Of a DNA stretch of 64,000 nt, positions 18,787-57,532 are shown in pieces. The notes beneath the pieces were generated by a model, which made no database searches, was not told where the DNA came from, and worked only from the letters and a program-made list of their open reading frames with translations. Location: NCBI RefSeq assembly GCF_963506605.1, contig NC_083288.1, positions 42,284,001-42,348,000 of the forward strand, given 5' to 3'. The DNA is from Zootoca vivipara (Eukaryota). Both the position numbers and the translations under genes were made by a program. Numbering within the stretch: position 1 is the first letter of the stretch; the number at the start of each line of letters is the position of its first letter.

Positions 18787-20589
18787 GCTGCTAAGGGCAG
18801 ATTGTTATAATAAATTTTCCTTAATGTTACATTTAATGAACATACCGTAAGCTTTCTTCCCAACTTAAAGTGGTGCCTTGGTATTTGTGTGATGGCCAAA
18901 CATTTTTACCCAGATTAACTTTCAGATTTACAGTTTTGAAGAAAGCAAGGAGAAAGAAAAAGGATAGGGGAGGTCCTTCAGAAACCTTTTAGTACTCAGT
19001 GACTGTTTCTATGTTCAGTTTTTAAAGGATTTCTACAGACTTATCCTACAAAATCTCCACTGGAATGGTGGAGGGATGTACATTAACAGGGTAAAATGGT
19101 TCATCTCTGCTGCTAAAAAGTCACGGGAAAGCATGAGGTCAGAATACTACAGTGCCTAAGAATGCCAAATGCTGAGTTGACCGTGAGCAGAGGAAAAGAT
19201 ACAGTGGATCTGGAATAGCTGAATATGGGAGGTTGAGGTTTCTGGGTGCTTCTTATCAGGGATACATACAAATCCCTGAACCAAATATTATATCCAGTGA
19301 CACAGACCTTTAATTTGTTCATCATTTTCTTCTTATTAGGTGCTCCCTATTGTTCAGCTCAGGCCTTAGCAAAATAATGTAACATTTTGGGGAAAAGATG
19401 CAACCCAACAACCCAGCACTGGAGGCTAAGATAGAGAAGATCTCCACAGCCACCATGTATTTCCCCTTTGAGCTCAGGTAGGCAGGAACAAAGGATAACC
19501 AAACACTGCAAAAGACCAACATGCTGAAAGTGATGAACTTGGCTTCGTTGAAACTGTCAGGTAATTTCCGGGCAAGGAAAGCCACAGTGAAACTGACCAA
19601 AGCTAGGAAGCCCATGTAGCCCAAGACAAGGTAAAAGAAGGTCACTGTCCCCTCATTGCACTCCAGTACAATTTCTTCAGCCATTGATTTCATATCAACA
19701 TTCGGGAATGGAGGAGAGATCACCAGCCATAGAGTGCAGATGACTGCCTGGATAAGGGAGCAGGAGAGGACAATAGAGTTCGCCAGTCCCTTCCCCACCC
19801 ACTTCCTCATCCTGGATCCTGGTTTTGTGGCCATGAAAGCCAGAACCACAGTGATGGTTTTTGCCAACACACAAGAAACAGCCACTGAGAAGATGATGCC
19901 AAAAACAGTTTGTCGGAGGAGACATGTCACCTTGTTCGGGTATCCGATGAACAGTAATGCAGAAAGGAAGCAAAGCAAGAGGGAGATGAGCAGTGAGTAG
20001 GTGAGGTCCCGGTTGTTAGCTTTCACAACGGGAGTGTCCCTGTGCTTCACAAATATTTCCAGTACCAGTGCTGTAATGAGAGCTAAGGAAAGAGCCGAAC
20101 AGGCTAAGCTGAGGCCTAAAGGTTCTTCAAAGGACAAGAAAGTTGTATGCTTGGCAATACATATATTCTTATGTTTGTTTGGATACTTTTCATCTTCACA
20201 TTCATTGCAGTCATTCATGTCTGAGAAAGAAAGACATGGTTCTGAATCCAAAAAGTATGACCAACATGTGACTACTCTTCTTCTATTTTGTTTCATTTCA
20301 ACATTTCTTTTAAAAAAATTAAAGTATGATCTTTTGAATACATAATTAAAATGATTTAAAAGGGTCCAAGGCTTACACCAGTTCTAGAAGCATCACATTC
20401 ACCTCAGCCTGCTTGATCTTTCTTTATTATATCATATCAAGGCGAAATTATAGCATATTATTTCCAGCTGTTACTGAAACCTCATGGCTCATCTGAAAAT
20501 CCACTTTATACTAATCTTTTCCAAACTGGTGGAGTTTGCTATAGGATTCTTCCTTAATAACATCAGTCAACATCCAGAATCACATCACA

Positions 20590-20648
<59 letters not shown>

Positions 20649-23599
20649 TTTCATTATGTCCCTCTTCAGCTAGATTTCTCAATATTTCCTGAACTGTGAA
20701 ATGAATCTTGGTGAATCCATGATGTCATATGCATGTTCTTGATTAGAGGCAACAGGCCTTAAATATATACAATATATACAAGCTATAAATATACCGTATA
20801 CAATAAATTTCTTACCCTCCTGGTCTGATATCTTCCCTTCTGGACATGGGATGCAATCGTAGCAGCAAAATGCTTCCCCCTCCTTCACCTTCCTGCAAAA
20901 ACCAGGGTGGCAGCTCTCAGTACATACAGAGATAGGCTGTGTCTAATACACAAATGAAAGAGAAAGATGTATACAGAAAGTGGACTCAAAGTCCTCTCAA
21001 AGTTGAGCTCTTCATTAAAAGGAATTTGCAAAAGAACAACATTCAATTCACTTAATAGGTTGTTTCAATTCCATTTTGAGTCATTTCCTGACATTTCCCA
21101 TTGACTCATTGTGCAAACTCCAATAAATTGTTGTTTTTTTGCCATTACTCTTGTGGATAGTAATATTTTTAATATCCTGTACAGTCAGGGCTCAGACTAG
21201 GTATGCACACCTCTTTCTGCCAGAGTGACATTAAGGGGTTGTGGCGGTGTCCCTTAATGCAAATTAAGCCTCAAGGTTATACACCTGCTATTCTAAAACT
21301 TTGAAGCATGGCTAGGGCGTACCCAGCGTGTGGCGGGGGGGCGCTGCCCCTCCCTAGAGGGGAGCCGCTGCCCCCCCTAGAAGCAAAAATTAAGCGTGGC
21401 AAAAGCGGCTCCCCGTCCTCCTCCCCGCTCCTTCCCTGGCTGTCTCTCCGGCAAAGCCTCTCAAAGGGGAGGAGTTGTGAGTGGGAGCCGGTTCCCTGCG
21501 TTGGCAAGGGGGCTATCGGCTCCTTGCCTTAGCCGTCCCAGTTGCCATGCCCTGCCTACTGCACCCAGCCATTAGGGCTGGCTCGGGGGCGGGGGCTAGT
21601 TGCATTCAAACAGCCGCGGCAGCCCTGAGCCATCCTTCCTTATTGCCTCCAGTCCTCCTTCGCTCAGCTGACTACCTTGGGCTTTGAGCTGGCAGCACCT
21701 CGCCGCTCGCCCCTTTCGGCTTTTCCTGGCTTGTCCACAGAAGCGGAACAGGTTCATTCTCCCTGGGAGTGGTAACGTTCGGGGATCAGGGCTTGTACCT
21801 GCGGGGGGGGGGGGTTCTTGTTTTGGAGGCTTTTTTCTTTGCTGATTACTTTCTAATTGGGCATGTTCTGCCTTTTAACTGCTTTACAGTTTAGCAAAGG
21901 CTTTTGGTGGGGAGGGGTGCATCTGGGAGCGTGGCTGAGCATTTTTCCCTTCCTGCATCTGGGAGCGTTTTTTCCCTTCCTGCTGCTGCTTGGCTCCTCC
22001 CCCTTACTCCTCACTCCCCGTCTTTGCCTCTGTTGGGATTAATAACATATCTTTGTGGGGCGTGTGTGTGGCTGAGGGAAGCGTGTCCCGGCTGCACGGC
22101 TGTTTTATTTTATTTTATTTTATTTTAGTTGTCTTTGTGGGAGTGGAGCTCCCCCCCCATCTTCGGCCAGTGAAGGTCAGCCTAGCTCGTTGGGGCATGT
22201 AGTTAGCTTTATTGTGACTTTATCTTGCCTGCTCAGTTGCCCTTTTGCCGAAACACCTACCGTAAATTGCTCTTAATAGTTATCATTGTCTGAGCCTGCA
22301 GCGTCAATTGCCTATCGTTCTCGTCGTCTAGCAACCAGTGTTTCAGAGGGATTTCTCATGTGAGTGTGGTTGGTAGGGAGAGCCCTTATACAGTTCTTAC
22401 GAGCCTTTTAAAGAACAGAAACTTCTGCACTGTAGCCAAAGCCAATTAAACTGCTTTTTAACGTATCTTAAATTCTATCTTAAATGGTGTGACTCACCCT
22501 GGGGACTGTTCCAGGAGTTTAAAAACTGCACAGGCTACTGGCTAGTCAAAGCTACTCCTTTAACAAAGCATGAAGTAGAGAACACTTTCTCCCCCACATT
22601 CCTTATGCACTAAGCAAAAAAAAAAGGGGGGGGGACAATAAAATTGGTTCCCTTTTCACTAGAACACCATAAATTCAAACCTTGAGGAAAAAGAAAAGAA
22701 AAAAGACACCAGGTGCAAAATTGGTTATGAGCGAGAGAAAGGGACTCTGTTGCACCAAGTGTCAGGCCTTTGTGATCTTGATGTGGGTATGATGATTTCA
22801 GACCTAATTTGTGCATTCTGCTAACACAAAAGTTCTTGCAGCTCCTAAGTGATCTTTCAATGCAGAAGGAACACACTCATTAGGTTTTTTTCACCTTCTC
22901 ACCTGCCTTCATTAAGGCATACCCTTTACAATCCCAATTGAACAGCAGGGGACATTATGAGCTAACTGAGAAGTGCCCCCCCTTTAACATGTGTTTCTCC
23001 CCTCCATCACTGAGCACCAGAGAAGAGTGCTGCATGTAGATCATCTTTTCATCAAATTTGTACAGCAAAAAACAGTTGCTGTTGTTGAATGCTTTAAGAA
23101 AAAATAAACAAAGCCCTGGGAAACTAAAGTAAGAAGATAGAGAAATTGGATAACAAATCCCCCTCCCCCAGAATGTATCTAAACTGCGCCTCGTGATTAC
23201 ATAAACATCAATATCAAGAAATTTCCCAAATGGGTTTGGGGAGCTGTGAATTCTTAATTTTCTGAAGCAAACTTAAGACATGTTTATCAATTCAAGGGTA
23301 TGGATATAGATCACTCAAAACCACAAAAGGGGGGGGGATGTATCCTGCAACTAAAACAACAACTCTAATGTAGATTTATTTTGTTATAAAAATGCACACA
23401 CCATGGTTTTGTTTCTGTTGGTTATTCTTCACATTTGCCTTTCCTTGTTCTTTGTATGCATGAAGACAACCCTCAATACCAACTTTTCAGATGGAAATAA
23501 TATGTATCTGTCTCTCTTCTGCACACATTTGCTGAGTATTTTAATCATAGTATCACAGAACTGGATGGTTGGAAGGGACCCCCCAAGGGTCCTCTAGAC

Positions 23600-25072
23600 C
23601 ACGGGTGTCAAACACAAGGCCCGGGGGCCTAATCCGGCCCGCCAGACCTCGTCATGTGGCCCGCGTAGCCGCCACCGACATTAGCCGCTGACAGTAGTTC
23701 TGGAGCCTGCGATTGGCCGAGGGTCAAAACCGGGGGCGGGGCTGCAGGCGGAGGCCGGGGCACTGGAGCCGCGCTGACGGCCTTGGCCAGGGAATTTCAA
23801 TTTCGAATGAGGCTGAGGGAGGTGGTGGCACAGCGGCCAGACGGGGAAGTGAGATGCAGGAGGAGGAGGAGGAAGCCCGCCGATGAGGTAGGAAAGCCCT
23901 ACAGGTGTCGCCGGCAAAGTTGGTGCCGGGACGGAGCAGCGCTGGATATTTTTTTGGCGGGCTTTGCTGTTGTCTCTGAGAGTGAGTGAGGCGGCACTGG
24001 GGAGCCGCCGCCCACCGCTTCCCTTCCTCTCCTTGGCTGCATCCGGGAGGTGGGCGAGTGAGCGGGCGAAAGGGACGCGGAGTGAGCCTGAGGGGGAAGT
24101 AGGCGAAGCGCAACAGCCACTCTCTTGATGGAGCCGGGTTTCTCTTCCCTCTTCCCCCGTTTTCTCCTCATAGACACTCGGGAGGGTGCCTGGCTTTTGC
24201 TCTGCCCCCCCACCCCCGAGCCGCCCTTTGGCTTCTCAGTTCCTGCAGAGCTGCTCCCCGGGGGGCGGCCGGGAGGGAGGCGGCGGCGACGGCACGGGTT
24301 CCTGCTCTTCCCGCTCTGCCGCTGCCTCCTCTCAGCCCCTCGTGATGTAGGGCTCCAGATGGAGTCGCCTCGCGGTTTGAGTAGGTGGGAGGGGATTTTT
24401 TTTGGGGGGGAGGTTTTCAAGCCTCCTCCGCCTGCAGTCCCGGTAGGGAGAGGCGGCGGCGAAGACGACAACAGCGCGGGTGGGGGGAAGAGCAGCTCTG
24501 AGGCGAAGATGCACGTCCGCTGGGGCTGCCGCCGCCCTCCTCCTCAGGAAATCCGCTGCCCTCCCTCAGCGTGAGGGGAAGGGACTCTGGCGCTGAGGAG
24601 GGAGGATGCAAAAGCAAAGCAGGGAGTTGGCGCTGCACTGCATGTTCCTGCCCCTCTCCAAAGCATGGGGTGGGTTGCAGCGTGTGGCATCCTGCCTAGC
24701 GGGGTTTGGGTGTGCGCAGGGCGGGAGAGGGAAGCCCTCTTTCCATCTGCAGGTTTTTAATCCCAGCAGTGGCTTTCTCCCTGCCGAAGGTTTAGTTGAG
24801 CCCCCCCCCCCCGGGAAGCCGTCGATCCCCACCTTTTGTTCAAATTTCCCTCGTTTACATCCCCTCCCACACACGCGCCATGACGCAGGAATGTGATCCG
24901 CGTGGGGGCGGGAATGAGCTTACATTATTACTAAAAACAGTAATAATTGAATGCAGTGACAATAATTTATGATAATAAAGAGTGGACACATAGTCCTACA
25001 GACACAACCGGCCCTTTGAGGGTGACCAAACTGCTGATGCGGCCCCCGATGAATTTGAGTTTGACACCCCTG
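23600..25072. mobile_element. Nested hAT-Charlie-type non-autonomous element with CpG-island-like interior
   Basis: TIRs CACGGGTGTCAAAC / GTTTGACACCCCTG and a perfect 8-bp TSD CTCTAGAC (23592..23599, 25073..25080), which fits the Charlie NTCTAGAN target. It splits a CR1-type tail. Confidence 0.9.
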
Positions 25073-25164
25073 CTCTAGACCAACCCCCTCCAGTGCAGGA
25101 ATCACACCACAAGCATCTCTCACAAAACAAGTTTGCTCCATCTTCCCTATGAACAGGCCTTCAG

Positions 25165-25294
25165 ATACAACAGAATAACAGAACCATTCACAGAGTTGGA
25201 AGGGAACCACCAGGGTCATCTAGTCCAACCCCCTCCAATGCAGGAATCTTTTGCCCAACATGGGGCTTGGAACCACAACCCTGAGATTAAGAGT
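25165..25294 (-). mobile_element. tRNA-Lys(CTT)-derived SINE with CR1-type 3' tail, 5'-truncated
   Basis: The minus strand reads ACTCTTAATCTCAGGGTTGTGGTTCCAAGCCCCATGTTGGGC (tRNA-Lys 3' half) followed by GGTTGGACTAGATGACC...TTCCAACTCTGTG (CR1 tail). A second tail at about 23545-23599/25081-25103 is split by the Charlie element. Confidence 0.7.
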
Positions 25295-28200
25295 GTAAGT
25301 GTGGTGTCAGCTCCCTTAAAAAAGGTCAACAACTCTGGGAAAGGGAGGGCGCCGGAGGGATTGCCGAATATGCTTAAGACGGCCCTGGGTGCCAATGCGG
25401 GGAGGGCGCTGCAAGAAGGGGGCTCTGCCGCCACCTAGGTGGAAAGTTCACCACTGCATCAGGACAATGGGGAACTGACTTGGAGCAGCCAGCCTCCTGA
25501 ACCATGGCTTGCCCCCCCCCCCGTTTTGATCCTGGGTACGCCCCTGAAGCATGGCTTGTTTCATCTGCCTTGTGAAGTCATTTATAAATGTAGCCACAGT
25601 TTAGAAAGTGCTGAACATTGACATATGGATCCTTTAAAACTGAAATATTTATACCTGCCATCCATAGATAGGTTTCTTTCTAATTTTGGTGAAAACCACT
25701 GTTGCACTTTATTCAGGCTTGTCAAGAATGACATACTTTCAATGGGTGACAAACACCAGAGTGGTTAAAACATGATTAATATTTCACTTTTTAAATATTT
25801 TTACTTATGAATTTTGAAAAATGAAAAAATTAACAACATGGTTAATGTTTCCCTTGCCCATTAAAGCATATGGGAGCTAGAAGAAACATTTTATTATCTT
25901 AATACAAATCTATTTTAAAAAATATTTTGTTTAAAGTTCAGCTGGTGTGGTTTGAGCCAATGTGTTTTTTGTGTAATCTGTATTATAGCATCCCACATCC
26001 TTGCCTTTGGCCTTTGTTTGCAGAGCCACAGTAGAAAGCCACTGCTCCATATCCAGCAGGTGATGGCAGCTAACTCTCCACTGAGCTATTCAATTGTGGG
26101 CTTAATATCAATATCAAAGGTGGAGAACTCAGATGCCCTGAAAAATGATTCTTAGTGACTGCCAGGGGGTTACCAAGGTACAGAGAGGGCTAAGGACTTC
26201 CTTGTTGATGACATTGTACAGAATATTTTAAACACCAAAGACCTTACTTTGTTCTTTAGTTCTATCTAGGAATACACCAACCAGAGGCTATAGGGATTAG
26301 GCTTTTGTTATGGGGCTGATGTAAAAGTTGATGTCACTTCATGTTTCTTCCTTGTCAAAGTATTCTCATAAATTTGGGATACAGGCACAGATGTGTGGCA
26401 GCCCAAGTATTCCAGATACTATCTAGGTTGGACTATTGGGTGTAATTTCTATTTACAGTACATTGTTATATGCCATACCAATCTCCAAGTAGTGAGAGAA
26501 TCAGGAGTTTGATTTTCTTTTAATGATGGTCGGAGACCTCAGAGTCTTGAGTATATATGACTTTATTTAAACATTTAAACATATGGCTATATTTAAAATA
26601 GTTCAGCAAGCTTCCCTTTCTGTGTGCTCCCCTCACTGATGCAGGAACCTAGGACTGGAAGGGGAACCAGGGTTTTATCCAGACAGATATTCCAAATTCA
26701 TAACAATATATTCAATACCATTAAAATCTATTTAGAATTCACTTCTTCAAGTTGTCAATTTATTTTTTCACCTTCAGTGAAACAAGAACCAGTATAGAGG
26801 CTGTGCATTTAGCTTATAATTCATAGCTTGTGCTACCTTTAATCCAATTTTTTAAAGGCTGAACACCGTACAATGAAAATATGTTTGTATGTTATGTTAA
26901 ACTGTTCACATTCACAAATGGCTGATGGTTACATCCTACCTGGTTAAACCAATGGTGCCATTTTATGGCTCCCTCATTGATGGTCAGCGCTTGCTGTGGA
27001 GGAGCCATGGAATTCACCCATCCTACCTTCACTCTCTGAAAGGATTGGTTGGAGGAAACAATCCAATTGGTAATGTCAAATCCAGCTAGTATCTCCCCAT
27101 TCTGGTCCAAGGAAATCTTATCCCCAGCACTGTTGTTAAATGAGATACCCCTCAGAAAATGATGGAGCTAGATTGAAAAGGAAAGTATAGAAAAAGCTTC
27201 AATATAGCAAGAGACAATCAAGATGTTCACTTTCATGGCAAGTTTCCAAATATACACCTTTCAGGAAAGCATTCTTTTAATATTTTTAAATATATATACA
27301 TAAGATTTAATCTAAGCCTTTCTCACATTTTGAATTTCATTTTAAATTACAGATTTCTAAGATCTCCAGTAGCAAATCCATACACAACCATAAAAATATT
27401 ATTAATAGAAAGTTTACTGTATTTTGTTTTCTAGGATATATCACTTTGCTCTCTATAGACTCTATATGCTATGGGATGTGAAATACAGTACTATTCCTTT
27501 TACATGCCAACTTCAGAGTTAAATGGGGAATCAGCCCCATGCTGAACTAAGAGGTTGGCATGAATAGGTTGAAGAAGGAATGGTGATAAAGGCAAAGTCT
27601 AGAAGTTGGCTAAATCATGCTTGGATGGAATTCGTTTTCTTTTATTCTCTTTCTGTATTTCTACTTTAAGTTGCAACAGTTTAAAAGAAGACATTTAAAG
27701 GGTTTTAAATTATAAGTAAAATGCGAAGAGATTAAAATATGTCAACACTAAACAAAAATAATTTAAGCAGGGGCCTAAATGAATGCAGTGAGGGTGTCTG
27801 TCTGATGTCAATAGGCAGGGAAGTCTAGTAGGCTGAATTTGAAGCTAGAAAAGCAAGTGGAGAAGTTCCCATTGGGCTTTATGTGCATTTCAAGAGAGAT
27901 GAAGCAACTATCTCATGGCCAAAGGGCTGTGAATAGAGGAAGTAGTTTGGGGGCACCTGCGGAAGATTTCAGGAGCATTGCTGCACCCACATTGGTGACC
28001 CCTGCTGTGGCTGCTTAGAAAAAATGACAGTTAACCTAACGGAAAGATAGAAAAGGCAAACAGAACATGTTTTGAACGTCTTTCAGGAAGGGTATTCAAC
28101 CCATTACCTGCCACAGCGGTTGATTCTGAAACTTCATTCCTCCATTGATAATTACCGGTCTGTGTTTCACTCGGGATATAGACATGGCATGTAAAGCATG

Positions 28201-30421
28201 GGCCACAGCATAGACAGCATTGTAGATGTTGTAACTGTGGCTGGTCATAGTCATTTCAAAGAAGGGACTAGGAAGATTCTCCAGCTTCTCTTGCCCAGTG
28301 CAAATATCCCCCTTCACACTGCCAACAACTTGATTTGGAAACACACAGCCAAATGCCTGTTGCCAGAAGTCCAAAATAAAGCCATCTCCTTTTGGGCTGG
28401 AAGGGGTTTTGCTCTGGACAAATTGATGAAATCCTGGTGGATCATTTGAGTGAGTTGTGAATGACAGAACCCCATGGAGTATTTCGGTATCCCAAGTCCG
28501 TTGAAAGACAAAAGAAGTGAGCTCCACCTGGGCTGTCATAATCCACACTTTACCTTTTGGCTTATTTGAACTTTGTTCCAGTTCTGATAGGTAAGGCAAC
28601 CATCGAAAAAATGCCAGAGCATATGATTCTCCATAAACCAAGACTACATTATTTTGTCATGTATTTTTGCCCCCAGTTTAAACATATCGTTAATTTCAGT
28701 GACATAAGTAAATTTGTAACTTCTTTCTATGAAGGCAAAACAGATGCCACTCTGGGAAAAAAGGGGAACCACAGTTTGCACAAATCTTTCTGCATTCTCA
28801 TCATAGAAGGTAAGGATCCCAATCCATATCCACCTGAAATGCAGAAGCAAAAACAGGATCCCCTTATACTGGCGGGTTTCCTTGGGTGCCATCTGGTAGA
28901 AGAAAAGGCCTGGGGTTTTATCATTCATCACTGGAGCAGGGCCATATATGACCTAAAAATAGTTGTTGTTAGGAGGAAAAAGAGACAGAAGCAACAATAA
29001 CTTTAACATATTAGATTTGTGTATTACAAGCATCACTGGGGCAATTTCCAATTGGGCCTTCCAATCCTTGCTATTTGGCCTGCCCATGATATTTCTGCTT
29101 AGCCAAGTGACACTTACCTGCCAATCAGCTGTTATCATATATATTGGGCATTGGGTAGGCCTGAAGGGACATTTGAAGCAATAATTTATGTGTTAACAAT
29201 ATTTTATTTATTTGCTTGGATCTATCATTAGAAGGACCCATTGGATTATTTGAAATCCGAATGTGTTACGTTCCCTTTACTTGACAGAGAGAGATATATC
29301 TCACCTGTGGAACCTTATAGATATCCAAGATTGTTGCCACATGGAGGGAAGTTTGGGGGTCCAGTCCTCCAATGACGGCTATCAAGTTTTTCTTGATGTC
29401 ACAGATGTAGTTGGGGACAAATGTTTTCAGAGTGGATAGGAGTAACATTGTGGCATGAGAGGTCCATTTGGCATTGAAATAACTGTCATAGATGCAGAAG
29501 CCTAAAGTGACATTGGGTAACAGCTGAGGGTTTTCGTTGATCTCCTTCACTGCAAATTTCAAGGCCAGGATGTGCTGGTAATTCTTTGGCACCACACTAA
29601 AAAGAGTTTCATTTTCCATCAGAAGGGCACGTAACACTTTCTAAATTTATTACAACTCAAGTCTTCATCCTCATCAGTATTATTTATTATTGTGTTCATT
29701 TAATTATTACTATTTTTTTGTACATGCGGAAACTCTTGAACTGCAAATGACCTTCCTCCTTGCCTACAAGGTGGAAAAGGGATGAAGGGGAAAATTCTAT
29801 GAGAGGGGAGCACAGACCTTTCCTTATTTCATTCTCCTGAAGCCCTGAAGCAAAACTGACGCAGTTATTTCCACAATATTACATGTCTTTCTATGTTACC
29901 TGAATGTTTAATTCAGAGGGGAAAGTGGCAATGTTATCTTCAAACTAGTGGAGATCCTCTTGACCACATTTCTCCCACATCACATATCTTTTGACCCAAA
30001 CAGTAGTTCTGCCTCTAGGACAAGGGTGCAGAACTGTGCCCCTCCAGATGTTGCTGTCCAACAATATCCATTCTTATTGATGAAACTGATGGAGTTGAAC
30101 AACCACTGCAGGGCCACAGTTTAGCCACCCCTCCTCTAAAATTGATCACTCCAGTGTCCAAATAAGGAATCAAAATGCAGAAGTGAAATTATCCAGATCT
30201 TACCTTAGTTCTTCCAGCAATGTTGGTGGGGGTTTTTCGGTGAAAGCTATTGAAATGGAGATGATGATGCTGTGAGAGGCTATGCCTCCAATGATGAGGT
30301 CTCCTTCCTGATGATGTTGATGAAGTGGAGTGTATGGATCATGGACATGGCATTTAACAATGGGAGATTTGCCTGTTGTATGAGGAAGTCGAGTCAGCAG
30401 CAAGACCAATAATGCCACCAT

Positions 30422-31912: not shown

Positions 31913-34900
31913 ATGGTGGCATTGTTGGTCTTGCTGCTGACTCTACTTCCTCATGCAACATGCAAATCTCCCATTGTTAAATGCCATGTCCATGATCCAT
32001 ACATTCCACTTCATCAACATCATCAGGAGGGAGACCTCATCATTGGAGGCATAGTCTCTCACAGCATCATCATCTCCATTTCTATAGCCTTCACCGAAAA
32101 CCCCCCACCAACATTGCTGGAAGAACTAAAGTAAGAACTGGATAGTTTCACTTATGCATTTCGATTCCATCTTTGACACTGGAGTGATCAGTTTTAGAGG
32201 AAGGGTGGCTAAACTGTGGCCCTGCTGTGGTTGTTCAACTCCATCATTTCCATCAATAATAATGGATATTGTTGGACAGCAACATCTGGAGGGGCACAGT
32301 TCTGCACCCTTGTCCTAGAGGCAGAATTACTGTTTGGGTCGAAAGAGATGGGATGTGGGAGAAATGTGGTCAGGAGGATCTCCACTACTTTAAAGAAATT
32401 GTTTCCACTTTCCCCACTGAATTAAACATTCAGGTAACATAGAAAGACATGTAATATTGCTGCACAGTTAAGAACAGAACTGGGCCTCCCCTCCATTGTT
32501 GCGAGAGCCCACATTAGAATTATTTGTTTTTATTGTAAATTAATAACTGCCCCAGGTTCCCTATTAGCCAGGCAAGCCTTTTTAACTTGTTCCCATAGCA
32601 ACAAATGGTCTAAGGGCATGGAGTCTATTATTGCATGCTACTCCCTCCCAGAATTCGACACGCTGTCATCCTGGGACCAACATAAAATCCGGGCCTGGAT
32701 TCTTACAAGGGACGAGGCCATGGACCTGGCACGGTCCACCACTTTCCTAAAGTGAAAGTGGTAAGATCACTTGCCAACTACTTGATAGACCTGACGGAGC
32801 CCAATTTGAGAAGAGCGTTTACTATGGCCCGTTTCCATTCTATACCCATCGGCCTTCCTGCAGGGGATTTACTCTAAGACCCCTATTACTCAGTGCCTAT
32901 GCCCATGCACGATGAATGAAATAGAGGACTTCCTACATTTCTTTTTCTACTGCCCCATTTATGAGCCAATAAGATCTAAGCTCCTCCTCTTGATCCCGTC
33001 CACCATTACATCTAAGGAAGACTGTTTGAAATTACTTCTTGTGGACACAAATCCCCTAATTTCACGTGGGGTGGCAATCTTCATAGTTCAGGCTCTGAAA
33101 CTCCGGGCTACCCTGACAGTGTAGTGTGTCCTAGACCTGGACCTGTTTTAATTCTCTCTATTTCATTTTTAACTGAATGTGCCGAGCCTATTTTGGGCTA
33201 TTTTATGCTTTACATATATCTGCATATTAGTTTTTTGCTGCTGGCACCTAAATCTTTGCATTATGGTCGTAGAGTAATTTAAATGTTATTACACCAGCAA
33301 TATCACCTTGAATTATGCTTTGTTGCTTGTCTCTGGCATTTTGTATTGTTTTTATTTTGCTATGGCTGTATGCTAACGCAATAAAGGTTTGAGTTTGAGA
33401 CATGTAATATTCTGGAAATAACTGCATCAGTTTTGCTTCAGGGCTTCAAGAGAATGAAATAAGGAAAGGTCTGTGCTCCCTTCCCATAGAATTTTCCCCT
33501 TCATCCCTTTTCCACCTTGTAGGCAAGGAGGAGAGTCACTTGTAGTTCAAAAGCTTCCTCATGTACAAAAAAATATTAATAATTAAATGAACACAGTAAT
33601 AAATAATACTGGTGAGGATGAAGACTTGAATTGTAATAAATTTAGAAAGTGTTACGTGCCCATCTGATGGAAAATGAAACTCTTTTTAGTGTGGTGCCAA
33701 AGAATTACCAGCACATCCTGGCCATGCAATTTGCAGTGAAAGAGATCAACGAAAACCCTCAGCTCTTACCCAATGTCACTTTAGGCTTCCGCATCTATGA
33801 CAGTTATTTCAATGCCAAATGGACCTCTCATGCCACAATGTTACTCATATCCACTCTGAAAAGATTTGTCCCCAACTACATCTGTGACATCAAGAAAAAC
33901 TTGATAGCCGTCATTGGAGGACTGGACCCCCAAACTTCCCTTCATGTGGCAACAATCTTGGATATCTATAAGGTTCCACAGGTGAGATATATCTCTGTCA
34001 AGTAAAGGGAACTTAACACATTCGGATTTGGATAATTAAATGTGCACATTTCAAATAATCCGATGGGCCCTTCTAATGATAGATCCAAGCAAATAAATAA
34101 AATATTGTTAACACATAAGTTATTGCTTCAGGTGTCCCTTCAGGCCTACCAAATGCACGATATATATGATAACAGCTGATAGCAAGGATTGGAAGGCCCA
34201 ACTGGAAATTGCCCCAGTGATGCTTGTAATACACATACCTACCTGTAACTGATATATTAAAGTTATTGTTGCTTCTGTCTCTTTCCCCTCCTACCACAAC
34301 TATGGTTAGCTCATATATGGCCCTGCTCCAGTGATGAATGATAAAACCCCAGGCCTTTTCTTCTACCAGATGGTGCCCAAGGAAACCCGCCAGTATAAGG
34401 GGATCCTGTCTTTGCTTCTGCATTTCAGGTGGATATGGATTGGGATCCTTACTTTCTATGATGAGAATGCAGAAGGATTTGTGCAAACTGTGGTTCAACT
34501 TTTTTCCCAGAGTGGCATCTGTTTTGCCTTCATAGAAAGAAGTTACAAATTTACTTATGTCACTGAAATTAACGATATGTTTAAACTGGGGGCCAAAATA
34601 CATGACAAAATAAATGATAGCAAAGCCAATGTAGTCTTGTTTTATGGAGAATCATATGCTCTGGCATTTTTTAGATGGTTGCCTTACCTATCAGAACTGG
34701 AACAAAGTTCAAATAAACCAAAAGGTAAAGTGTGGATTATGACAGCCCAGGTGGAGCTCACTTCTTTTGTCTTTCAACGGACTTGGGATACCGAAATACT
34801 CCATGGGGTTCTGTCATTCACAACTCACTCGAATGATCCACCAGGATTTCGTCAATTTGTCCAGAGCAAAACCCCTTCCAACCCAAAAGGAGATGGCTTC

Positions 34901-37900
34901 ATTTTGGACTTCTGGCAACAGGCATTTGGCTGTGTGTTTCCAAATGAAGTTGTTGGCAGTGTGAGAGGAGATATTTGCACTGGGCAAGAGAAGCTGGAAT
35001 ATCTTCCTGGTCCTTTCTTTGAAATGAGAATGACCAGCCACAGCTATAACATCTACAATGCTTTCTATGCTGTGGCCCATGCTTTACATGCCATGTCTAT
35101 ATCCCGAGTGAAACACAGACCGGTAATGATCAATGGAGGAATGAACTTTCAGAATCAACCGCTGTGGCAGGTAATGGGTTGAACACCCTTCCTGAAAGAC
35201 GTTCAAACATGTTCTGTTTGCTTTTTCTATCTTTCCGTTAGGTTAACTGTCAATTTTCCTAAGCAACCACAGCAGGGGTCACCAATGTGGGTGCAGCAAT
35301 GCTCCTGAAATCTTCTGCAGGTGCCCCCAAACTACTTCCTCTATTCACAGCCCTTTGGCCATGAGATAGTTGCTTTATCTCTCTTGAAATGCACATAAAG
35401 CCAAATGGGAACTTCTCCACTTGCTTTTCTAGCTTCAGATTCAGCCTACTAACCTTCCCTGCCTATTGACATCAGACAGACACACTCACTGTCTTCATTT
35501 AGGCACCTGCTTAAAATATTTTTGTTTAGGCACATGAGTGTTGACATATTTTAATCTCTTCGCATTTTACTTCTAATTTTAAACCTTTTAAATGTCTTCT
35601 TTTCAACTGTTTGAACTTAAAGTAGAAATAAAGAGAGAGAATAAAAGAAGATGAATTCTATCCAAGCATGATTTAGCCAACTTCTAGACTTTGCCTTTAT
35701 CACCATTCCTTCTTCATCCTTCCTTCTCCATCCTCTTAGTTCAGCATGGGGCTGATTCCCCATTTTCCTCTGAAACCTGCCATGAAAGTGAACATCTTGA
35801 TTGTCTCTTGTTATATTGAAGCCTTTTCTATACTTTCTCTTTCCTTTTCAATCTAGCTTCATCATTTTCTGAGGGGTATCTCATTTAACAACAGTGCTGG
35901 GGATAAGATTTCCTTGGACCAGAATGGGGAGATACTAGCTGGATTTGATATTACCAATTGGATCGTTTCCTCAAACCAATCCTTTCAGAGGGTGAAGGTA
36001 GGAGGGGTGGATTCCCTGGCTCCTCCACAGCAAGCGTTGACCATTAATGAGGGAGCCATAAAATGGCACCATTGGTTTAACCAGGTAGGATGTCACCATC
36101 AGCCATTTGTGAATGTGAACAGTTTAACTTAACATAATATACAAACATATTTTCATTGTATGGTGTTCAGCTTTTAAAAAATTGGATTAAAGGTAGCACA
36201 AGCTATGAATTATAAGCTAAATGCACAGCCTCTATACTGGTTCTTGTTTCACTGAAGGTGAAAAAATAAATTGACAACTTGAAGAAGTGAATTCTAAATA
36301 GATTTTAATGGTATTGAATATATTGTTATGAATTTGGAATATCAGTCTGGATAAAACCCTGGTCCCCCTTCCAGTCCTGGTTCCGGCATCACTGAGGGGA
36401 GAACACAGAAACGGAAGCTTGCTGAACTATTTTAAATATAGCCATATGTTTAAATGTTTAAATAAAGTCATATATACTCAAGACTTTGAGGTCTCCGACC
36501 ATCATTAAAAAAAAATCAAACTCCTGATTCTCTCACTACTTGGAGATTGGTGCGGCATATAACAATGTACTGTAAATAGAAATTACACCCAATAGTCCAA
36601 CCTAGATAGTATCTGGAATACTTGGGCTGCCACACACCTGTGCCTATATCCCAAATTTATGAGAATACTCTAACAAGGAAGAAACATGAAGTGACATCAA
36701 CTTTTACATAAGCCGCATAACAAAAGCCTAATCCCTATAGCCTCTGGTTGGTGTATTCCTAGATAGAACTAAAGAGCAAAGTAAGGTCTTTGGTGTTTAA
36801 AATATTCTGTACAATATCAACAACAAGGAAGTCCTTAGCCCTCTCTGTACCCTGGTAACCCCCTGGCAGTCACTAAGAATCATATTCCAGGGCATCTGAA
36901 TGCTCCACCTTCGATACGGATATTAAGCCCAGAATTGAATAGCTAAGTGGACAGTTATCTGCCATCACCTGCTGGATATAGAGCAGTGGCTCTCTACTGT
37001 GGCTCTGCAAAAAAAGGCCCAAGGCAAGGATGTGGGATGCTATAATACAGACTACACAAAAAAACACATTGGATCAAACCACACAGGCTGAACTTTAAAC
37101 ATTTTTTTTAAAAAAAATAGATTTGTATTAAGATAAACAATAAAATGTTTCTTCTAGCTCCCATATGCTTTAATGGGCAAGGGAAACATTAATCATGTTG
37201 TTCAATTTTTCATTTTTCAAAATTCATAAGTAAAAATATTTAAAAAGTGAAATATTAATCATGTTTTAACCACTCTGGTGTTTGTCAACCATTGAAAGTA
37301 TGTCATTCTTGACTAGCCTTAATAAAGTGCATCAGTGGTTTTCACCAAAATTAGAAAGAAACCTATCTATGGATGGCAGGTATAAATATTTCAGTTTTTA
37401 AAAAGGATCCATATGTCAATGTTCAGCACTTTCTAAACTGTGGCTCCTTTTATAAATGACTTCACAAGGCAGATGAAACATGCCATGTTTCAAATTTTAG
37501 AATAGCAGGTGTATAACCTTGAGGCTTAATCATTAAGGGACACCGCCACAACCCCTTAATGTCACTCTAGCAGAAAGAGGTGTGCATCCCTAGGCTGAGC
37601 CCTGACATTACAGGATATTTAAAATATTACTATCCATAACAGAAACAGCAAAAACAATTTATTACAGTTTGCGCATTTAGTAAATGGGAAATGTCAGAAA
37701 ATGAGTCAAAATGGAAATGAAACAACCTATTAAGTGGATTGCTGAAATGAATGCTGTACTTTTGCAGATTCCTTTTAATGAAGAGCTCAACTTTGAGTGG
37801 ACTTTGACTCCAATTTTTTTTATATACATCTCTCTCTTTCATTTGTGCATTAGACACAGCCTAACTCTGTATGTACTGAGAGCTGCCGCCCTGGTTTTTT

Positions 37901-39418
37901 CAGGAAGGTGAAGGAGGGGGAAGCATTTTGCTGCTACGATTGCATCCCATGTCCAGAAGGGAAGATTTCAGACCAGGAGGGTAAGAAATTTATTGTATAT
38001 ATTTAAGGCCTGTTGCCTCTAATCGAGAACATGCATATGAAATCATGCATTCACCAAGGTTCATTTGACAGTTCAGGATATATTGAGAAATCTTGCTGAA
38101 GAGGGACATAATGAAAGTGTGTGTGTGTGTGATAATTTGTGATTGGATGCCGAATGTTGTTATTAATGAAGAATCCTATAGCAAGATCCACCTCGTTGAA
38201 CAGGATTAGTATAAAGTGGATTTTCAGATGAGCCAGGAGGTTTCTATAAGAGCTGGAAATAAGCCATAATATCTCCTTGATATGATATAATAAACAAAGA
38301 TCAATCAGGCTGAGGTGAATGTGATGCTTCTTAAACTGGTGTAAGCCTTGGACCCTTTTGAAATCACTTTAATTATGTATTCACAAGATCATACTTTAAT
38401 ATATATTTTTTTTTAAAAAAAAAACACTAGCCCAAATGTTAAAATGAGACAAAATAGAGGAAGAGTAGTCACATGTTGCTCATATTTTTGGGATTAAGAA
38501 CCATGTTTTTCTTTCTCAGACATGAATGACTGCTATGAATGTGAAGATGAAAAGTATCCAAACATACATAAGAATGTATGTATTGCCAAGCATATAACAT
38601 TCTTGTCCTTTGAAGAACCTCTGGGCCTAAGCTTAGCCTGTTCTGCTATTTCCTTTGTTTTCATTACAGCACTGGTACTAGAAATATTTGTGAAGCACAG
38701 GGACACTCCCGTTGTGAAAGCCAACAACCGGGACCTCACCTATGCTCTGCTCATCTCCCTCTTGCTTTGCTTCCTTTCTGCATTACTGTTCATCGGATAT
38801 CCGAACAAGGTGACATGTCTTCTCCGACAAACTGTTTTTGGCATCATCTTTTCAGTGGCCGTTTCTTGTGTTCTGGCAAAAACCATCACTGTGGTTCTGG
38901 CTTTCATGGCCACAAAACCAGGATCCAGAATGAGGAAGTGGGTGGGGAAAGGACTGGCAAACTGTATTGTCTTCTCCTGCTCCCTTATCCAGGCAGTCAT
39001 CTGCACTCTGTGGCTGGTGATCTCTCCTCCATACCCTAATGTTGAGATGAAATCAATGGCTGAAGAAATTGTACTGGAGTGCAATGAGGGGACAGTGACC
39101 TTCTTTTACTGTGTCTTGGGCTACATGGGATTCCTAGCTTTGGTCAGTTTCACTGTGGCTTTCCTTGCCCGGAAATTACCTGACAGTTTCAACGAAGCCA
39201 AGTTCATCACTTTCAGCATGTTGGTCTTTTGCAGTGTTTGGTTATCCTTTGTTCCCACCTACATGAGCTCAAAGGGGAAATACATGGTGGCTGTGGAGAT
39301 CTTCTCTATCTTAGCCTCCAGTGCTGGGTTGTTGGGTTGCATCTTTTCCCCAAAATGTTACATTATTTTGCTAAGGCCTGAGCTGAACAATAGGGAGCAC
39401 CTAATAAGAAGAAAATGA
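31913..39418 (+). CDS. Vomeronasal type-2 receptor, gene D, intact 6-exon gene, 874 aa
   Basis: join(31913..32130,33690..33981,34310..35170,35857..36084,37854..37980,38520..39418) = 2625 nt. Introns are GT-AG and the exon structure matches gene B. This is the inverted paralog of gene C. Confidence 0.95.
32459..33397 (+). mobile_element. RTE-X-like non-LTR retrotransposon 3' fragment in intron 1 of V2R-D
   Basis: 14-bp TSD AGACATGTAATATT (32445..32458, 33398..33411), AATAAA and a (GAGTTT)n tail. Degenerate C-terminal ORF RRAFTLARF...[25 protein letters not shown] with a CCHC motif. Absent from gene C. Confidence 0.8.
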
Positions 39419-40269
39419 TGAAGACATCAAAAGTCTGTGTCATTGGCTATAATATTTAGTTCAGGGATTTGTATGTATCCCTGAAAAGAAGCACCTAGAA
39501 CTGTAGGCTACCAACCAACAGGATTAACCCTCCTCGGCTGTCAGTTGGAAAGTAGGAAGGAGATTGTGTGTCTCCTTTCCTTGCCTGCTTCCAAAAATCA
39601 GAATTTTTAAAACAACATTTAAATATTAGCCCTGTCCCCAAATTATTCTGAGGATGGATACAGGACTGGGCAGTTGTTCCCTCGGGCAGCCCAATTCAGG
39701 GCCCAAAATTGCACACACACCCCAGATCACGTAGGCTGTGCAGATGCCCACTTCTCATTACTATTGACTGAAAATCTCCACTACTTGCCTTCTTTCAACA
39801 CACTGAGTCCTCCATATTCAGCGATCCCTGATCTACTGCATATTTTCCTCTCCTCAGTTTCAACTCTGTATTTCTTATTCTTAGGCCTTGGCACTGTACT
39901 ATTCTGCTCTGATGATCTTTCTCACAACTTATGCGCACCATAGATGAACAATTTCACCCTGTCTAATCCCATTTTATTTTTCTGCATTTGGCTGTGTTAC
40001 ATCCTGCTCCACTATAGTAGCAATTTTCAGGATAAGTCTGTGCAAAGCTGTGAAAAGCTGTGAAATAAAAAATGTGTACAGTCTGGATGGAGTGCCAGCA
40101 ACTCTCTGTTTGTGCGGAGTTCATGTTCCGAGTCATTACACAAATAAGTGGTCTCATGTAAGCCTGTTCCATCTCTGTTCCACCCCCTTCAGGGGCCACA
40201 AATTGACGCATGCATCATCCGTCATGGGTCCATCAGGAGCACGCAAAGTGTTCCCCGCCTGCACATATA

Positions 40270-50084: not shown

Positions 50085-50132
<48 letters not shown>

Positions 50133-50147
50133 GGTATTATTATTATT
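49775..50147 (+). mobile_element. L2 LINE 3' end with (TAT)n tail, just upstream of the OR pseudogene acceptor
   Basis: Highly similar to 46610-47060 but without the MITE. Confidence 0.9.
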
Positions 50148-50243
50148 AATCATTTACTGATTTTACCTAAAGCTTTGATGGAATCATCTCATTACCCTTG
50201 CCTTTCTCCCCTTCCTATTTTTACAGAGGTATGCATGAAGGGA

Positions 50244-51204
50244 ATGATGTCAGCAAACCAGACAGTGGTGACCGAGTTTGTCCTGCTGGGCCTCTCTGAA
50301 ACATGGGAAGTCCAGCTCATCTTATGTGTTGTCTTCCTCCTCCTCTACATTGGTACTCTCTTCAGCAACATCCTCATATTCTCAGCAATTTTCAGGGATC
50401 AACGCCTTTCAGACTCCCCCATGTTCTTTCTGCTAGGTCAGCTGGCTTTCCAGGACCTCTGCCTGTCCTCCTTTGCCATCCCAAGATCCCTCTTTGATTA
50501 TTTTGCCAAATGCCATGTCATCTCCTTCAGTGGCTGCATGGCACAAATCTTCTTTGTCCATCTCTTTACAGGCAGCGAGATGCTCCTATTGGTGGCCATG
50601 GCCTATGACCTGCTATGTAGCCATCTGTCATCCTCTCCACTATGTTTCGCTCATGAGCCGGCATCATTGCATTGGGCTTGTGCTTGCCTCCTGGGCTGGT
50701 GGGCTCCTCCATGGCACTGTGCAACTGGCTTTCATCATTAATGTGCCTTTCTGTGGGCCCAATCGGGTGGACAGTTTCTTCTGTGACCTCCCCTTGGTCA
50801 TCAAGTTGGCTTGCGTTGACACCTACCCCCTGGAGGTCATGATGGTCACCAACAGTGGCATTTTATCACTGGTGTCTTTTCTTGGCCTGCTTATCTCATA
50901 CGGATTCATCCTCTACACAATCCGCTCCCGGGGTCCCTCTGAAGGGACCACCAAGGCTGCCTCCACATGCACCTCTCACCTCATTGTGGTCACCATGTAC
51001 TTTGGGCCCTGTTTGTTCATTTACCTGCGTCCATCTGCCCGGTTCATGATTGATAAAGTTCTCTGCGTCTTCTATACCTGTGTCACCCCCTTGCTGAACC
51101 CAGCTATCTATGCTTTGAAGAACAAGGAGATGAAGGCGGCCATTCGAAGCCTGTTGGCAAGGCTTTCTGGGCAGGTTTCCACTCAGGGCCGTCCCCACCA
51201 TTAG
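50244..51204 (+). pseudogene. Olfactory receptor pseudogene, OR4-like (class II), 1-bp insertion in the MAYDRY motif
   Basis: The ORF is split into 50175..50741 and 50473..51204. GCC TAT GAC C[T]GC TAT GTA has an extra T at about 50611. It carries the NQTVVTEFVLLGL, FCGPNRVDSFFCDLPLVIKLAC, STCTSHL and PLLNPAIY motifs. A splice acceptor (ttacag) lies 17 nt upstream of the ATG. Confidence 0.9.
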
Positions 51205-56218: not shown

Positions 56219-56578
56219 ACCACTTCCAAGTGGTTTTCTGCTTCTCCCATGCTTTTTAGGCATGTGTCTAAGTGGTTTTGCCTTTGCCCTGCCGCTATCC
56301 TCCAGAAAACCCACTCTTTAGCACCAAATTGCAACAAACAGCAATCCATAGAAAACCCTATTGCTATTTGTTGTGGTTCAGTGCTAAACTACGGGGTTTC
56401 CCAGGTAAAATGGCTGGGGAAATGGAAGTGTGTATGAGCACTCAGACCCCAGCTGAGAATAACAGCAGCTAACACACGAATACACCCTTTCCTGGTTTAA
56501 CTTAATGCTGTGATGGAAGTATCTCATTACTGTCTCCTTTCTCCCTTCCCAGTCTACACAGTGATATGCAAGAAGGGA

Positions 56579-57532
56579 ATGATGTGGGAAAACCAGACAA
56601 TGGTGACTGAGTTTGTTCTGCTGGGCCTTTATGAAAAATGGGAAGTCCAACTTTTCATATTTGTCCTTTTCCTTGTCCTTTATGTGGCTACTCTCTTCAG
56701 CAACATTCTTATTTCCTCAGCAATTTTCATGGATCACCGTCTTTCAGATTCACCCATGTTCTTTCTGCTGGGTCAACTGGCTTTACTGGACCTCTGCCTG
56801 TCCTCCTTTGCCATCCCAAAATCTCTCTTTGATTACATTGCTCAACACCAAGTCATCTCCTTCAATGGCTGCATGGCACAAATCTTCTTCATCCATTTCT
56901 TTGGAGGCAGTGAGATGCTTTTGCTGATAGTCATGGCCTATGATCGGTACGTAGCCATCTGCCATCCTCTCCGTTATGCCTCACTCATGAACCGACACCA
57001 TTGCATGGCACTTCTCCTTGCCTCATGGGCTGGTGGGTTCCTCCATGCCATTGTGCAACTGGCTTTCATCATTAATGTGCCTTTCTGTGGACCCAATCGG
57101 GTGGACAGCTTCTTCTGCGACCTCCCCTTGGTCATCAAGTTGGCTTGCGTTGACACCTACCCCCTGGAGGTCATGATGGTCACCAATAGTGGCATTATGT
57201 CACTGGTGTGCTTTATTGGCCTGCTTCTCTCATATGGATTCATTTTCTACACAATCCGATTCCGGTCCTCTTCTGAAAGAACCACCAAGGCTACCTCCAC
57301 ATGTACATCTCACCTCATTGTGGTCACTATGTACTTTGGGCCCATTATGTTCATTTACTTACGTCCATCTACCCAGTTCATGATTGATAAAGTGCTCTCT
57401 GTCTTCTATACCTCCATTACCCCCTTGCTGAACCCAGCTATCTATGCTTTGAAGAACAAGAAGATGAAGGCTGCCATTGGAAGTCTGCTCTCAAGGTTTT
57501 CTAGGCGGGTTTCCTCTCAGGGCCAGCCCTGA
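56579..57532 (+). CDS. Olfactory receptor, OR4-like (class II), intact single-exon CDS, 317 aa
   Basis: Runs MMWENQTMVTEFVLLGL...MAYDRYVAICHPLRY...KATSTCTSHL...PLLNPAIYALKN. The ATG at 56579 is preceded by an acceptor (tacacag ending 56561), so the longer 340-aa ORF start is intronic. Confidence 0.95.
   Translation: MMWENQTMVTEFVLLGLYEKWEVQLFIFVLFLVLYVATLFSNILISSAIFMDHRLSDSPMFFLLGQLALLDLCLSSFAIPKSLFDYIAQHQVISFNGCMAQIFFIHFFGGSEMLLLIVMAYDRYVAICHPLRYASLMNRHHCMALLLASWAGGFLHAIVQLAFIINVPFCGPNRVDSFFCDLPLVIKLACVDTYPLEVMMVTNSGIMSLVCFIGLLLSYGFIFYTIRFRSSSERTTKATSTCTSHLIVVTMYFGPIMFIYLRPSTQFMIDKVLSVFYTSITPLLNPAIYALKNKKMKAAIGSLLSRFSRRVSSQGQP

What the first reader, a model, noticed from the sequence alone, without database searches (positions are those of the whole stretch)
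23600..25072. Charlie-type hAT carrying ~1.2 kb of CpG-island/promoter-like DNA: a portable promoter
Seen: perfect TSD CTCTAGAC and TIRs. The interior 23690-24915 is extremely GC- and CpG-rich in an otherwise AT-rich, CpG-depleted locus. It has a reverse CCAAT box (GATTGG, about 23711), GC boxes (GGGGGCGGGG about 23732; GGGGGCGGG about 24904), a half-CRE TGACGCA (24881), and GGA/GGC triplet runs typical of housekeeping 5' UTRs, with abrupt changes in style that suggest a mosaic. There is no recognisable transposase. Inference: the element captured fragments of host CpG-island promoters or first exons (open chromatin in the germline) and can seed them into chemoreceptor clusters that are normally silenced.
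Basis: partly seen in the sequence, partly recalled or inferred. Interest (0 to 1): 0.72.

Follow-up and report, generated by a model that had tools for sequence, protein, structure and literature searches.

The report
Transposon carrying a lizard gene's promoter
A small jumping DNA element in this lizard carries a copy of the likely promoter, first exon and first-intron start of the host gene EPB41L2 and has spread it to more than 300 places in the genome, but all 99 full copies examined show the mutation pattern of methylated DNA, so most are likely silent, and whether any works as a promoter is untested.

Summary
The element is real: 1,473 bp, 8-bp target duplication, 14/16 TIRs, no transposase. 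At least 323 copies share this interior's right junction. A larger sister subfamily has the same 65/154-bp ends and an unrelated interior. The source was found: a TIR-less CpG island on G000:C3, 27 kb upstream of the first coding exon of EPB41L2. It matches 23687-24066, 24191-24280 and 24888-24917 in order (E 5e-118). Database EPB41L2 isoforms begin in that island. Older copies in an unrelated transposon family hold the intervening 24067-24190 and parts of 24281-24605 in the same order. So the interior is most likely one captured 1.23-kb stretch that the host later trimmed, not a mosaic. Capture is supported; 'portable promoter for chemoreceptor clusters' is not. All 99 full copies carry at least 5 CpG transitions (mean 12). 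None of 99 has a receptor exon in about 2.3 kb of flank. The window copy points antisense inside an intron of a frameshifted V2R gene, and the 'half-CRE' is a CpG mutation. Verdict: an unusually high-copy Pack-TIR, a cut-and-paste analogue of bat HelibatN3. The scan noted a similar hAT (CENPW) in another lizard genome.

The parts
23600..25072 (+). Non-autonomous hAT, subfamily A (Pack-type element), 1,473 bp
23592..23599 (.). Left target-site duplication (8 bp)
   Evidence: a single copy of the site in 5 of 5 other copies of the outer element
25073..25080 (.). Right target-site duplication (8 bp)
23600..23664 (+). Left end shared with sister subfamily B; TIR 23600-23615
   Evidence: (1 difference between A and B majority sequences)
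24919..25072 (+). Right end shared with sister subfamily B; TIR 25057-25072
   Evidence: 1 difference in the last 140 bases
23665..23686 (+). A-specific filler between the transposon end and the host piece; variable among copies, with micro-duplications
23687..24066 (+). Captured EPB41L2 island, piece 1: GC box, likely first exon and intron start; matches L161:7124-6761
   Evidence: 85% over 384 columns, E 5e-118; 87.5% for the family consensus
23888..23893 (+). Captured splice donor (GTAGGA here and in 26 of 30 copies; GTAAGA in the host)
   Evidence: contig 4 of run X1 leaves the element at 23887
24067..24190 (+). Block missing from today's host island but present, in order, in old copies: likely ancestral host sequence
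24191..24280 (+). Captured island, piece 2; matches L161:6760-6668
   Evidence: E 2e-15
24281..24887 (+). Block missing from today's host island; 24297-24395 and 24477-24605 are in old copy L196; about 24606-24887 is untraced
   Evidence: one search found no source
24888..24917 (+). Captured island, piece 3 (second GC box); 30 of 30 identical to L161:6668-6639
21312..25546 (+). Outer, older multicopy hAT-like element into which the finding inserted; 8-bp duplication AAGCATGG at 21304-21311 and 25547-25554
19322..29640 (-). V2R-type receptor gene whose intron (between exons at 27167-26895 and about 20942) holds both elements; 16-bp deletion near 28650 shifts the frame
   Evidence: V2R identity read from the translations, recalled family knowledge

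Best explanation
This is a non-autonomous hAT DNA transposon whose interior matches, in order, the CpG island at the 5' end of the host gene EPB41L2, most likely taken up once as a single 1.23-kb stretch, then likely spread by cut-and-paste to more than 300 sites where it is likely methylated and mostly silent. Shown: the ends are shared with a sister subfamily, the interior is colinear with the TIR-less island, and the copies have distinct target duplications and CpG decay. Inferred: after excision, gap repair switched template from a sister-type element to the open island and back, leaving 22 bp of filler on the left. Inferred: a transposase supplied in trans amplified the product. Inferred: the host island later lost 124 and about 610 bp that the element still keeps. 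In this window the copy is a passenger, nested in another transposon in an intron of a broken V2R gene.
For: Mobility: 91 of 98 full copies have perfect 8-bp duplications, T at position 4 in 86 of 91 and A at position 5 in 88 of 91; empty site in 5 of 5 other outer-element copies. Foreign interior: 19 of 20 sampled left-end copies share only 65 + 154 bp with it and carry one other interior. Source: one TIR-less CpG-rich hit among 62 pattern matches; three colinear pieces; island GC 0.65, CpG o/e 0.90 over 840 bp, extending past both captured ends; upstream 443 bp single-copy apart from 4 old partial copies. Gene: FERM exons downstream; first coding exon 100% identical to proteins named band 4.1-like protein 2; 5 of those 120 proteins begin with 14 residues encoded in the island just past the captured end. 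Contig 4 of run X1 (1,845 nt, RNA by guess) matches 23800-23887 with 7 differences, the host has 8, and it leaves at the donor. Direction: old copies join the host's upstream sequence to the interior, so that junction predates this element. Methylation: CpG transitions 5.3% per site vs 0.56% at other C/G, 9.5-fold, in 30 copies; minimum 5, mean 12.3 in 99 copies; 16 in this copy.
Against: Only about 500 of 1,231 interior bases match today's island; about 280 bp have no source found (one exact-type probe, low power). Host and family consensus differ by about 6% (28 of 482 aligned sites, rough alignment), whereas copies differ from their consensus by only 0.9% outside CpG; this gap is unexplained. 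The onward sequence of contig 4 was not seen, so splicing of the captured exon to EPB41L2 is inferred. The transcription start is unmapped. Methylation is read from mutation pattern, which reflects the germline only. No autonomous partner was found in 30 of 74 transposase-domain loci, flanks 1.5 kb only.
Confidence: 0.82

Rival explanations
1. The C3 island is itself an old transposon insertion that EPB41L2 adopted as a promoter, and subfamily A later copied it: a promoter passed through two transposon families.
For: In 4 old copies the match to the host begins right at the inner edge of that family's terminal repeat, with a 7-base overlap. An A-run 170 bp past the captured end of the host island loosely resembles that family's right end. 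Where the old copies can polarise them, most host-versus-A changes and both large deletions fall on the host line.
Against: No recognisable terminal repeat upstream in the host; CpG-rich sequence runs beyond both boundaries. An old copy on C13 continues 260 bp through the supposed right end. The right end of old copy L195 is not preceded by host-like sequence.
Confidence: 0.12
2. The interior is a mosaic: host pieces from EPB41L2 interleaved with blocks taken from the old transposon family or from other islands.
For: Two blocks (124 and about 610 bp) are absent from today's host; about 24606-24887 has no traced source; recombination between elements is described in Anolis hATs (PMC3014272).
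Against: The blocks sit between host pieces in the same order in 70-80% identical old copies. The deletion edges in the host show short repeats (read by eye). One capture and two later host deletions is simpler.
Confidence: 0.12
3. One reading: the element is an active portable promoter that switches on chemoreceptor genes.
For: It does carry a real island piece with GC boxes, an ancestral CCAAT box and a GT donor. RNA reads of family type cover the interior in runs X13-X15.
Against: CpG decay in 99 of 99 copies with near-Poisson spread (mean 12.3, variance 14.9), so no spared class. Read depth in the interior is at most about 25, on both strands, with no start pile-up (6% of each run read). 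0 of 99 flanks hold a receptor exon. This copy is antisense to a frameshifted gene.
Confidence: 0.04

Closest known systems
Multicopy Pack-TIRs of animals, e.g. Pack-hAT-N8_XT with the CAPSL 5' UTR in Xenopus tropicalis (Tan et al. 2021, PMC8277862; abstract and passages read)
   Same: hAT ends around a GC-rich host 5' fragment; parent without TIRs on another chromosome; distinct target duplications.
   Different: That survey found 4 multicopy cases among 370 Pack-TIRs; the frog example has 3 copies and 291 bp. Here at least 323 copies and about 1.23 kb, with likely promoter, exon and donor. 'Lizard' does not occur in its main text; its supplements were not read.
HelibatN3 with the NUBPL promoter in vesper bats (PMC4224331 and PMC4778049; passages read)
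   Same: Promoter, first exon and splice donor of one host gene amplified to hundreds or thousands of copies; same exon-trap anatomy.
   Different: Helitron (rolling circle, no TIRs) rather than cut-and-paste. Promoter activity was shown there in cells and in 3 bat transcripts; here none is shown and copies look methylated.
Non-autonomous hAT families of Anolis carolinensis (Novick et al. 2011, PMC3014272; abstract and hAT section read)
   Same: 8-bp NTCTAGAN-type target as in the Charlie-related hAT-HT N families; shared ends with family-specific interiors of extraneous DNA. The TIR listed for TcMar-N15_AC resembles this TIR.
   Different: The extraneous DNA described there is mostly old transposon fragments; no host promoter source is named in the section read.
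Pack-MULEs of rice (PMC5861414, search listing only; otherwise as described in PMC8277862 passages)
   Same: TIR element with GC-rich gene fragment, often multicopy.
   Different: Plant Mutator superfamily; often several gene fragments (recalled), here one locus.

Membership tests
hAT superfamily (non-autonomous) | 8-bp target-site duplication | tested here: met
   91 of 98 full copies perfect
hAT superfamily (non-autonomous) | Short TIRs beginning YARNG | tested here: met
   14 of 16 match; right end fits, left end has C at position 3 in the family; motif from PMC3014272
Charlie/Buster subgroup of hAT | Target with central TA (NTCTAGAN type) | tested here: met
   T4 86 of 91, A5 88 of 91; same pattern as the Charlie-related Anolis families
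Charlie/Buster subgroup of hAT | Partner transposase falls in the Charlie clade | tested here: inconclusive
   No matching ends near 30 of 74 PF05699 loci; no tree possible
Pack-TIR (Tan et al. 2021) | Interior duplicated from host sequence whose parent copy has no TIRs | tested here: met
   L161:7124-6639, no element ends in L161-L166
Pack-TIR (Tan et al. 2021) | Multicopy type: several copies with distinct target duplications, parent far away | tested here: met
   parent on C3, window on C13
Pack-TIR (Tan et al. 2021) | Whole interior traced to the parent | tested here: inconclusive
   About 500 bp in today's host, about 350 bp more through old copies, about 280 bp untraced
Promoter-carrying exon trap (HelibatN3-like function) | Carries promoter region, first exon and splice donor | tested here: inconclusive
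   Island piece and GT donor present; start site unmapped, splicing inferred from one contig
Promoter-carrying exon trap (HelibatN3-like function) | Copies start transcripts that splice into neighbouring genes | tested here: inconclusive
   No start pile-up in 3 shallow RNA-seq samples; CpG decay in 99 of 99; somatic state untested
Helitron | No TIRs and no target duplication | tested here: not met
   TIRs and 8-bp duplications present

The most novel reading that the evidence does not exclude
The EPB41L2 island is a repeat donor, taken up at least twice by unrelated cut-and-paste families, and the 300-plus young copies form a genome-wide set of promoter-plus-donor cassettes, some of which start new transcripts in tissues where they lose methylation. 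The element also preserves about 730 bp of promoter and intron that the host gene has since deleted.
Probability: 0.2. Interest if true: 0.75.

Novelty: new member of a known kind. Interest (0 to 1): 0.52.

Why it matters
It is a named-source case of a vertebrate cut-and-paste transposon amplifying a host gene's 5' regulatory end about a hundred times beyond the 3-copy frog example in the animal Pack-TIR survey. It gives 300-plus near-identical CpG-island copies of one age in different chromosomal settings. That is a natural test of whether CpG-island sequence alone protects against methylation in a reptile germline, and the mutation record here says it did not. It also suggests that GC-rich interiors of lizard hATs can be traced to specific host islands and can keep sequence the host has lost.

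Tried and rejected
Plain DNA searches return only the 40 best copies and cannot show a source. The first filtered pattern missed the source because the host differs inside that probe: 79 matches; 52 fetched, of which 46 were element copies and 6 chance matches; 2 more were known copies; 25 were not fetched. The probe at 24851-24870 gave 8 matches, all element copies. The probe at 24080-24099 gave 16 matches: 15 copies and one old relative. Search for an autonomous partner around 30 of 74 PF05699 loci found only one weak left-end likeness. One search listed no holder on record as RNA; this is not evidence either way. Protein search with the + frame 24092-24571 found nothing among longer proteins. 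My first reading, nineteen different interiors, was wrong: they are one sister subfamily (output cut, but L092 was seen to match all 18 others). Reads across the empty site in X14 and X15 are explained by other copies of the outer element, not necessarily by an insertion polymorphism. Paper searches showed no description of this family or of EPB41L2 capture among the rows listed; one search was swamped by unrelated words.

Full report
Observation. The element spans 23600-25072 with the 8-bp duplication CTCTAGAC on both sides and TIRs that match at 14 of 16 bases. The interior has GC 0.64 and CpG o/e 0.67 in a window at about 0.26. The listed motifs are present. Only the GC-box hexamers exceed simulated sequence (7 vs 2.8, p 0.022). 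The half-CRE is not ancestral: 25 of 29 other copies have C at 24881.

Family. A search of the own genome (G000; window on C13) scored 40 of 542 candidates; 39 were full-length at 95-100% including this copy. An exact 21-base left-end pattern has 1,409 matches; an exact 19-base pattern across this interior's right junction has 323, a lower bound for subfamily A. I fetched 20 left-end matches on C1, mostly + strand, leaving out two already known to be A. One was A. Nineteen shared only the first 65 and last 154 bases and carried one different interior or deletions of it: subfamily B. A and B ends differ at 1 of 65 and 1 of 140 bases. Of 98 full A copies with both flanks, 91 have perfect 8-bp duplications centred on TA, the pattern given for Charlie-related hAT families of Anolis (PMC3014272). 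No autonomous partner was seen near 30 of 74 hAT dimerisation-domain loci, so 'Charlie' rests on ends and target only.

Source of the interior. A pattern made of an interior 19-mer plus one position that excludes the element's left end gave 62 matches. By their displayed sequence one, at C3:56.663 Mb, was CpG-rich non-element DNA running into the interior; two other odd rows proved to be interrupted or truncated copies. That locus has no element ends. It matches window 23687-24066 (85% over 384 columns, E 5e-118 for the genome size), 24191-24280 (E 2e-15) and 24888-24917 (30 of 30), and the three pieces abut in the host. It is a CpG island (GC 0.65, o/e 0.90 over 840 bp) that runs past both captured ends. 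The 443 bp upstream give 5 candidates, itself and 4 old partial copies; the 337 bp downstream give 2.

The gene. Twenty-seven kb downstream on the same strand lies an exon 100% identical to lacertid proteins named band 4.1-like protein 2, EPB41L2, followed by FERM exons. Five of the 120 listed proteins start with 14 residues that are encoded in the island about 95-135 bases past the captured end and end at a GT donor, so database gene models start EPB41L2 in this island. A second donor lies inside the captured piece (host GTAAGA, element GTAGGA at 23888) and is in frame with the coding exon, which has a one-in-three chance. In run X1 (RNA by guess), a 1,845-nt contig of depth 60 matches 23800-23887 with 7 differences and then leaves. 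The host differs from the window at 8 places there. That contig and an element-type contig both start 30 bases before 23830, the first base at which host and family differ, as a 31-mer assembly fork would give. I infer that this is the spliced host transcript; its onward sequence was not seen.

One piece, not a mosaic. Four old loci (L194-L197; C16 twice, C14, C1), 70-80% alike and poor in CpG, start the host match at the same point, in three of them just inside the end of a different transposon family. They contain host upstream sequence, lack the exon region, and hold 24067-24190 between its neighbours; L196 also holds 24297-24395 and 24477-24605. So these blocks are most likely ancestral island sequence that today's host has lost, and the island was taken up at least twice. 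The CCAAT box at 23711 is shared with L196 and absent from today's host allele. About 24606-24887 remains untraced. Unexplained: host and family consensus differ by about 6%, while copies are only 0.9% from consensus outside CpG. Most polarised changes fall on the host line. Fast change of the host island, or a donor allele from another lineage, are both open. The rival that the island is itself an adopted old transposon is weakened but not excluded.

Activity. In 30 copies, CpG transitions run at 5.3% per site against 0.56% at other C and G. In 99 distinct full copies the count is 5 to 25, mean 12.3, variance 14.9; about 1 would be expected at the non-CpG rate; this copy has 16. The sample leans to copies like this one and to copies with small indels. 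The copies were therefore methylated in the germline (established knowledge of methyl-CpG deamination); somatic state is untested. In three RNA-seq runs (6% read each) interior depth is at most about 25, on both strands, with no start pile-up inside the element; reads cannot be assigned to this copy.

Context. The copy sits in a short repeat fragment inside an outer hAT-like element, 21312-25546, with its own 8-bp duplication; 5 of 5 other outer copies examined have the empty site. The whole 4.2-kb block is absent from the paralogous intron at about 37.5 kb. The surrounding V2R-type gene is on the minus strand, so the captured promoter points antisense, and that gene has a 16-bp frameshifting deletion near 28650. 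None of 99 copies, this one included, has a V2R or olfactory-receptor exon in about 2.3 kb of flank, against 33 of 60 random pieces of this window. Copies are spread along the chromosomes listed. Five 300-bp flanks, of 4 copies, look island-like and were not followed up.

Mechanism. Shown: shared ends, host-derived interior, repeated insertion, CpG decay. Inferred: template switching during repair of an excision gap, onto an open germline island, then mobilisation in trans. The fork-stalling and template-switch model of PMC8277862 would fit equally.

Comparison and novelty. It meets the Pack-TIR definition of PMC8277862 (passages), which found 4 multicopy cases in 100 genomes, and has the anatomy of bat HelibatN3 (PMC4224331 and PMC4778049, passages), whose promoter was shown to work. 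Extraneous DNA in lizard hATs is described in PMC3014272 (hAT section). Searches listed no paper on this family; supplements were not read, and the Pack-TIR list in PMC8277862 could bear on this. Verdict: new, very high-copy member of a known kind; capture well supported, promoter function unsupported.

Noticed in passing
window 21312-25546: Outer multicopy hAT-like element (copies 87-96% alike) with a GC-rich left part (GC 0.63 over 21312-21800). Its 23300-23580 and 25075-25190 parts have RNA depth up to about 300, mostly one strand, in runs X14 and X15. Its 21460-21640 stretch has many further 73-87% matches in the genome. It may be another Pack-type element.
   Followed up: partly
L092-L110 (G000:C1): Sister subfamily B, roughly 1,000 copies by subtraction, has a CpG-rich interior with an inverted repeat of about 300 bp and a long CT-rich block; its origin was not traced.
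   Followed up: partly
L194-L197; L199: Old CpG-depleted copies of other parts of the same EPB41L2 island: four in a different transposon family, and one 260-bp copy of the downstream part on C13.
   Followed up: partly
window 28090-28960 (minus strand): 16-bp deletion in the large extracellular exon of the V2R-type gene relative to its paralogue; likely pseudogene or assembly error.
   Followed up: partly
window 50085-51204: Olfactory-receptor-like gene split over two frames, while its paralogue at 56501-57532 is in one frame.
   Followed up: no
window about 19240-29890 vs 33400-39500: Inverted duplication of a V2R gene at 88-94% identity, the two genes head to head.
   Followed up: no
L153 (G000:C11:12.889-12.896 Mb): Three full A copies in tandem about 2.25 kb apart; probably a local segmental duplication.
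   Followed up: no
L162, L163 (EPB41L2 first intron): Three more GC- and CpG-rich blocks of 0.5-1 kb between the island and the coding exon, repeat-like; not identified.
   Followed up: no
L025, L075, L114, L169: A copies with island-like flanks; first candidates for escape from methylation, or insertions into other GC-rich repeats.
   Followed up: no
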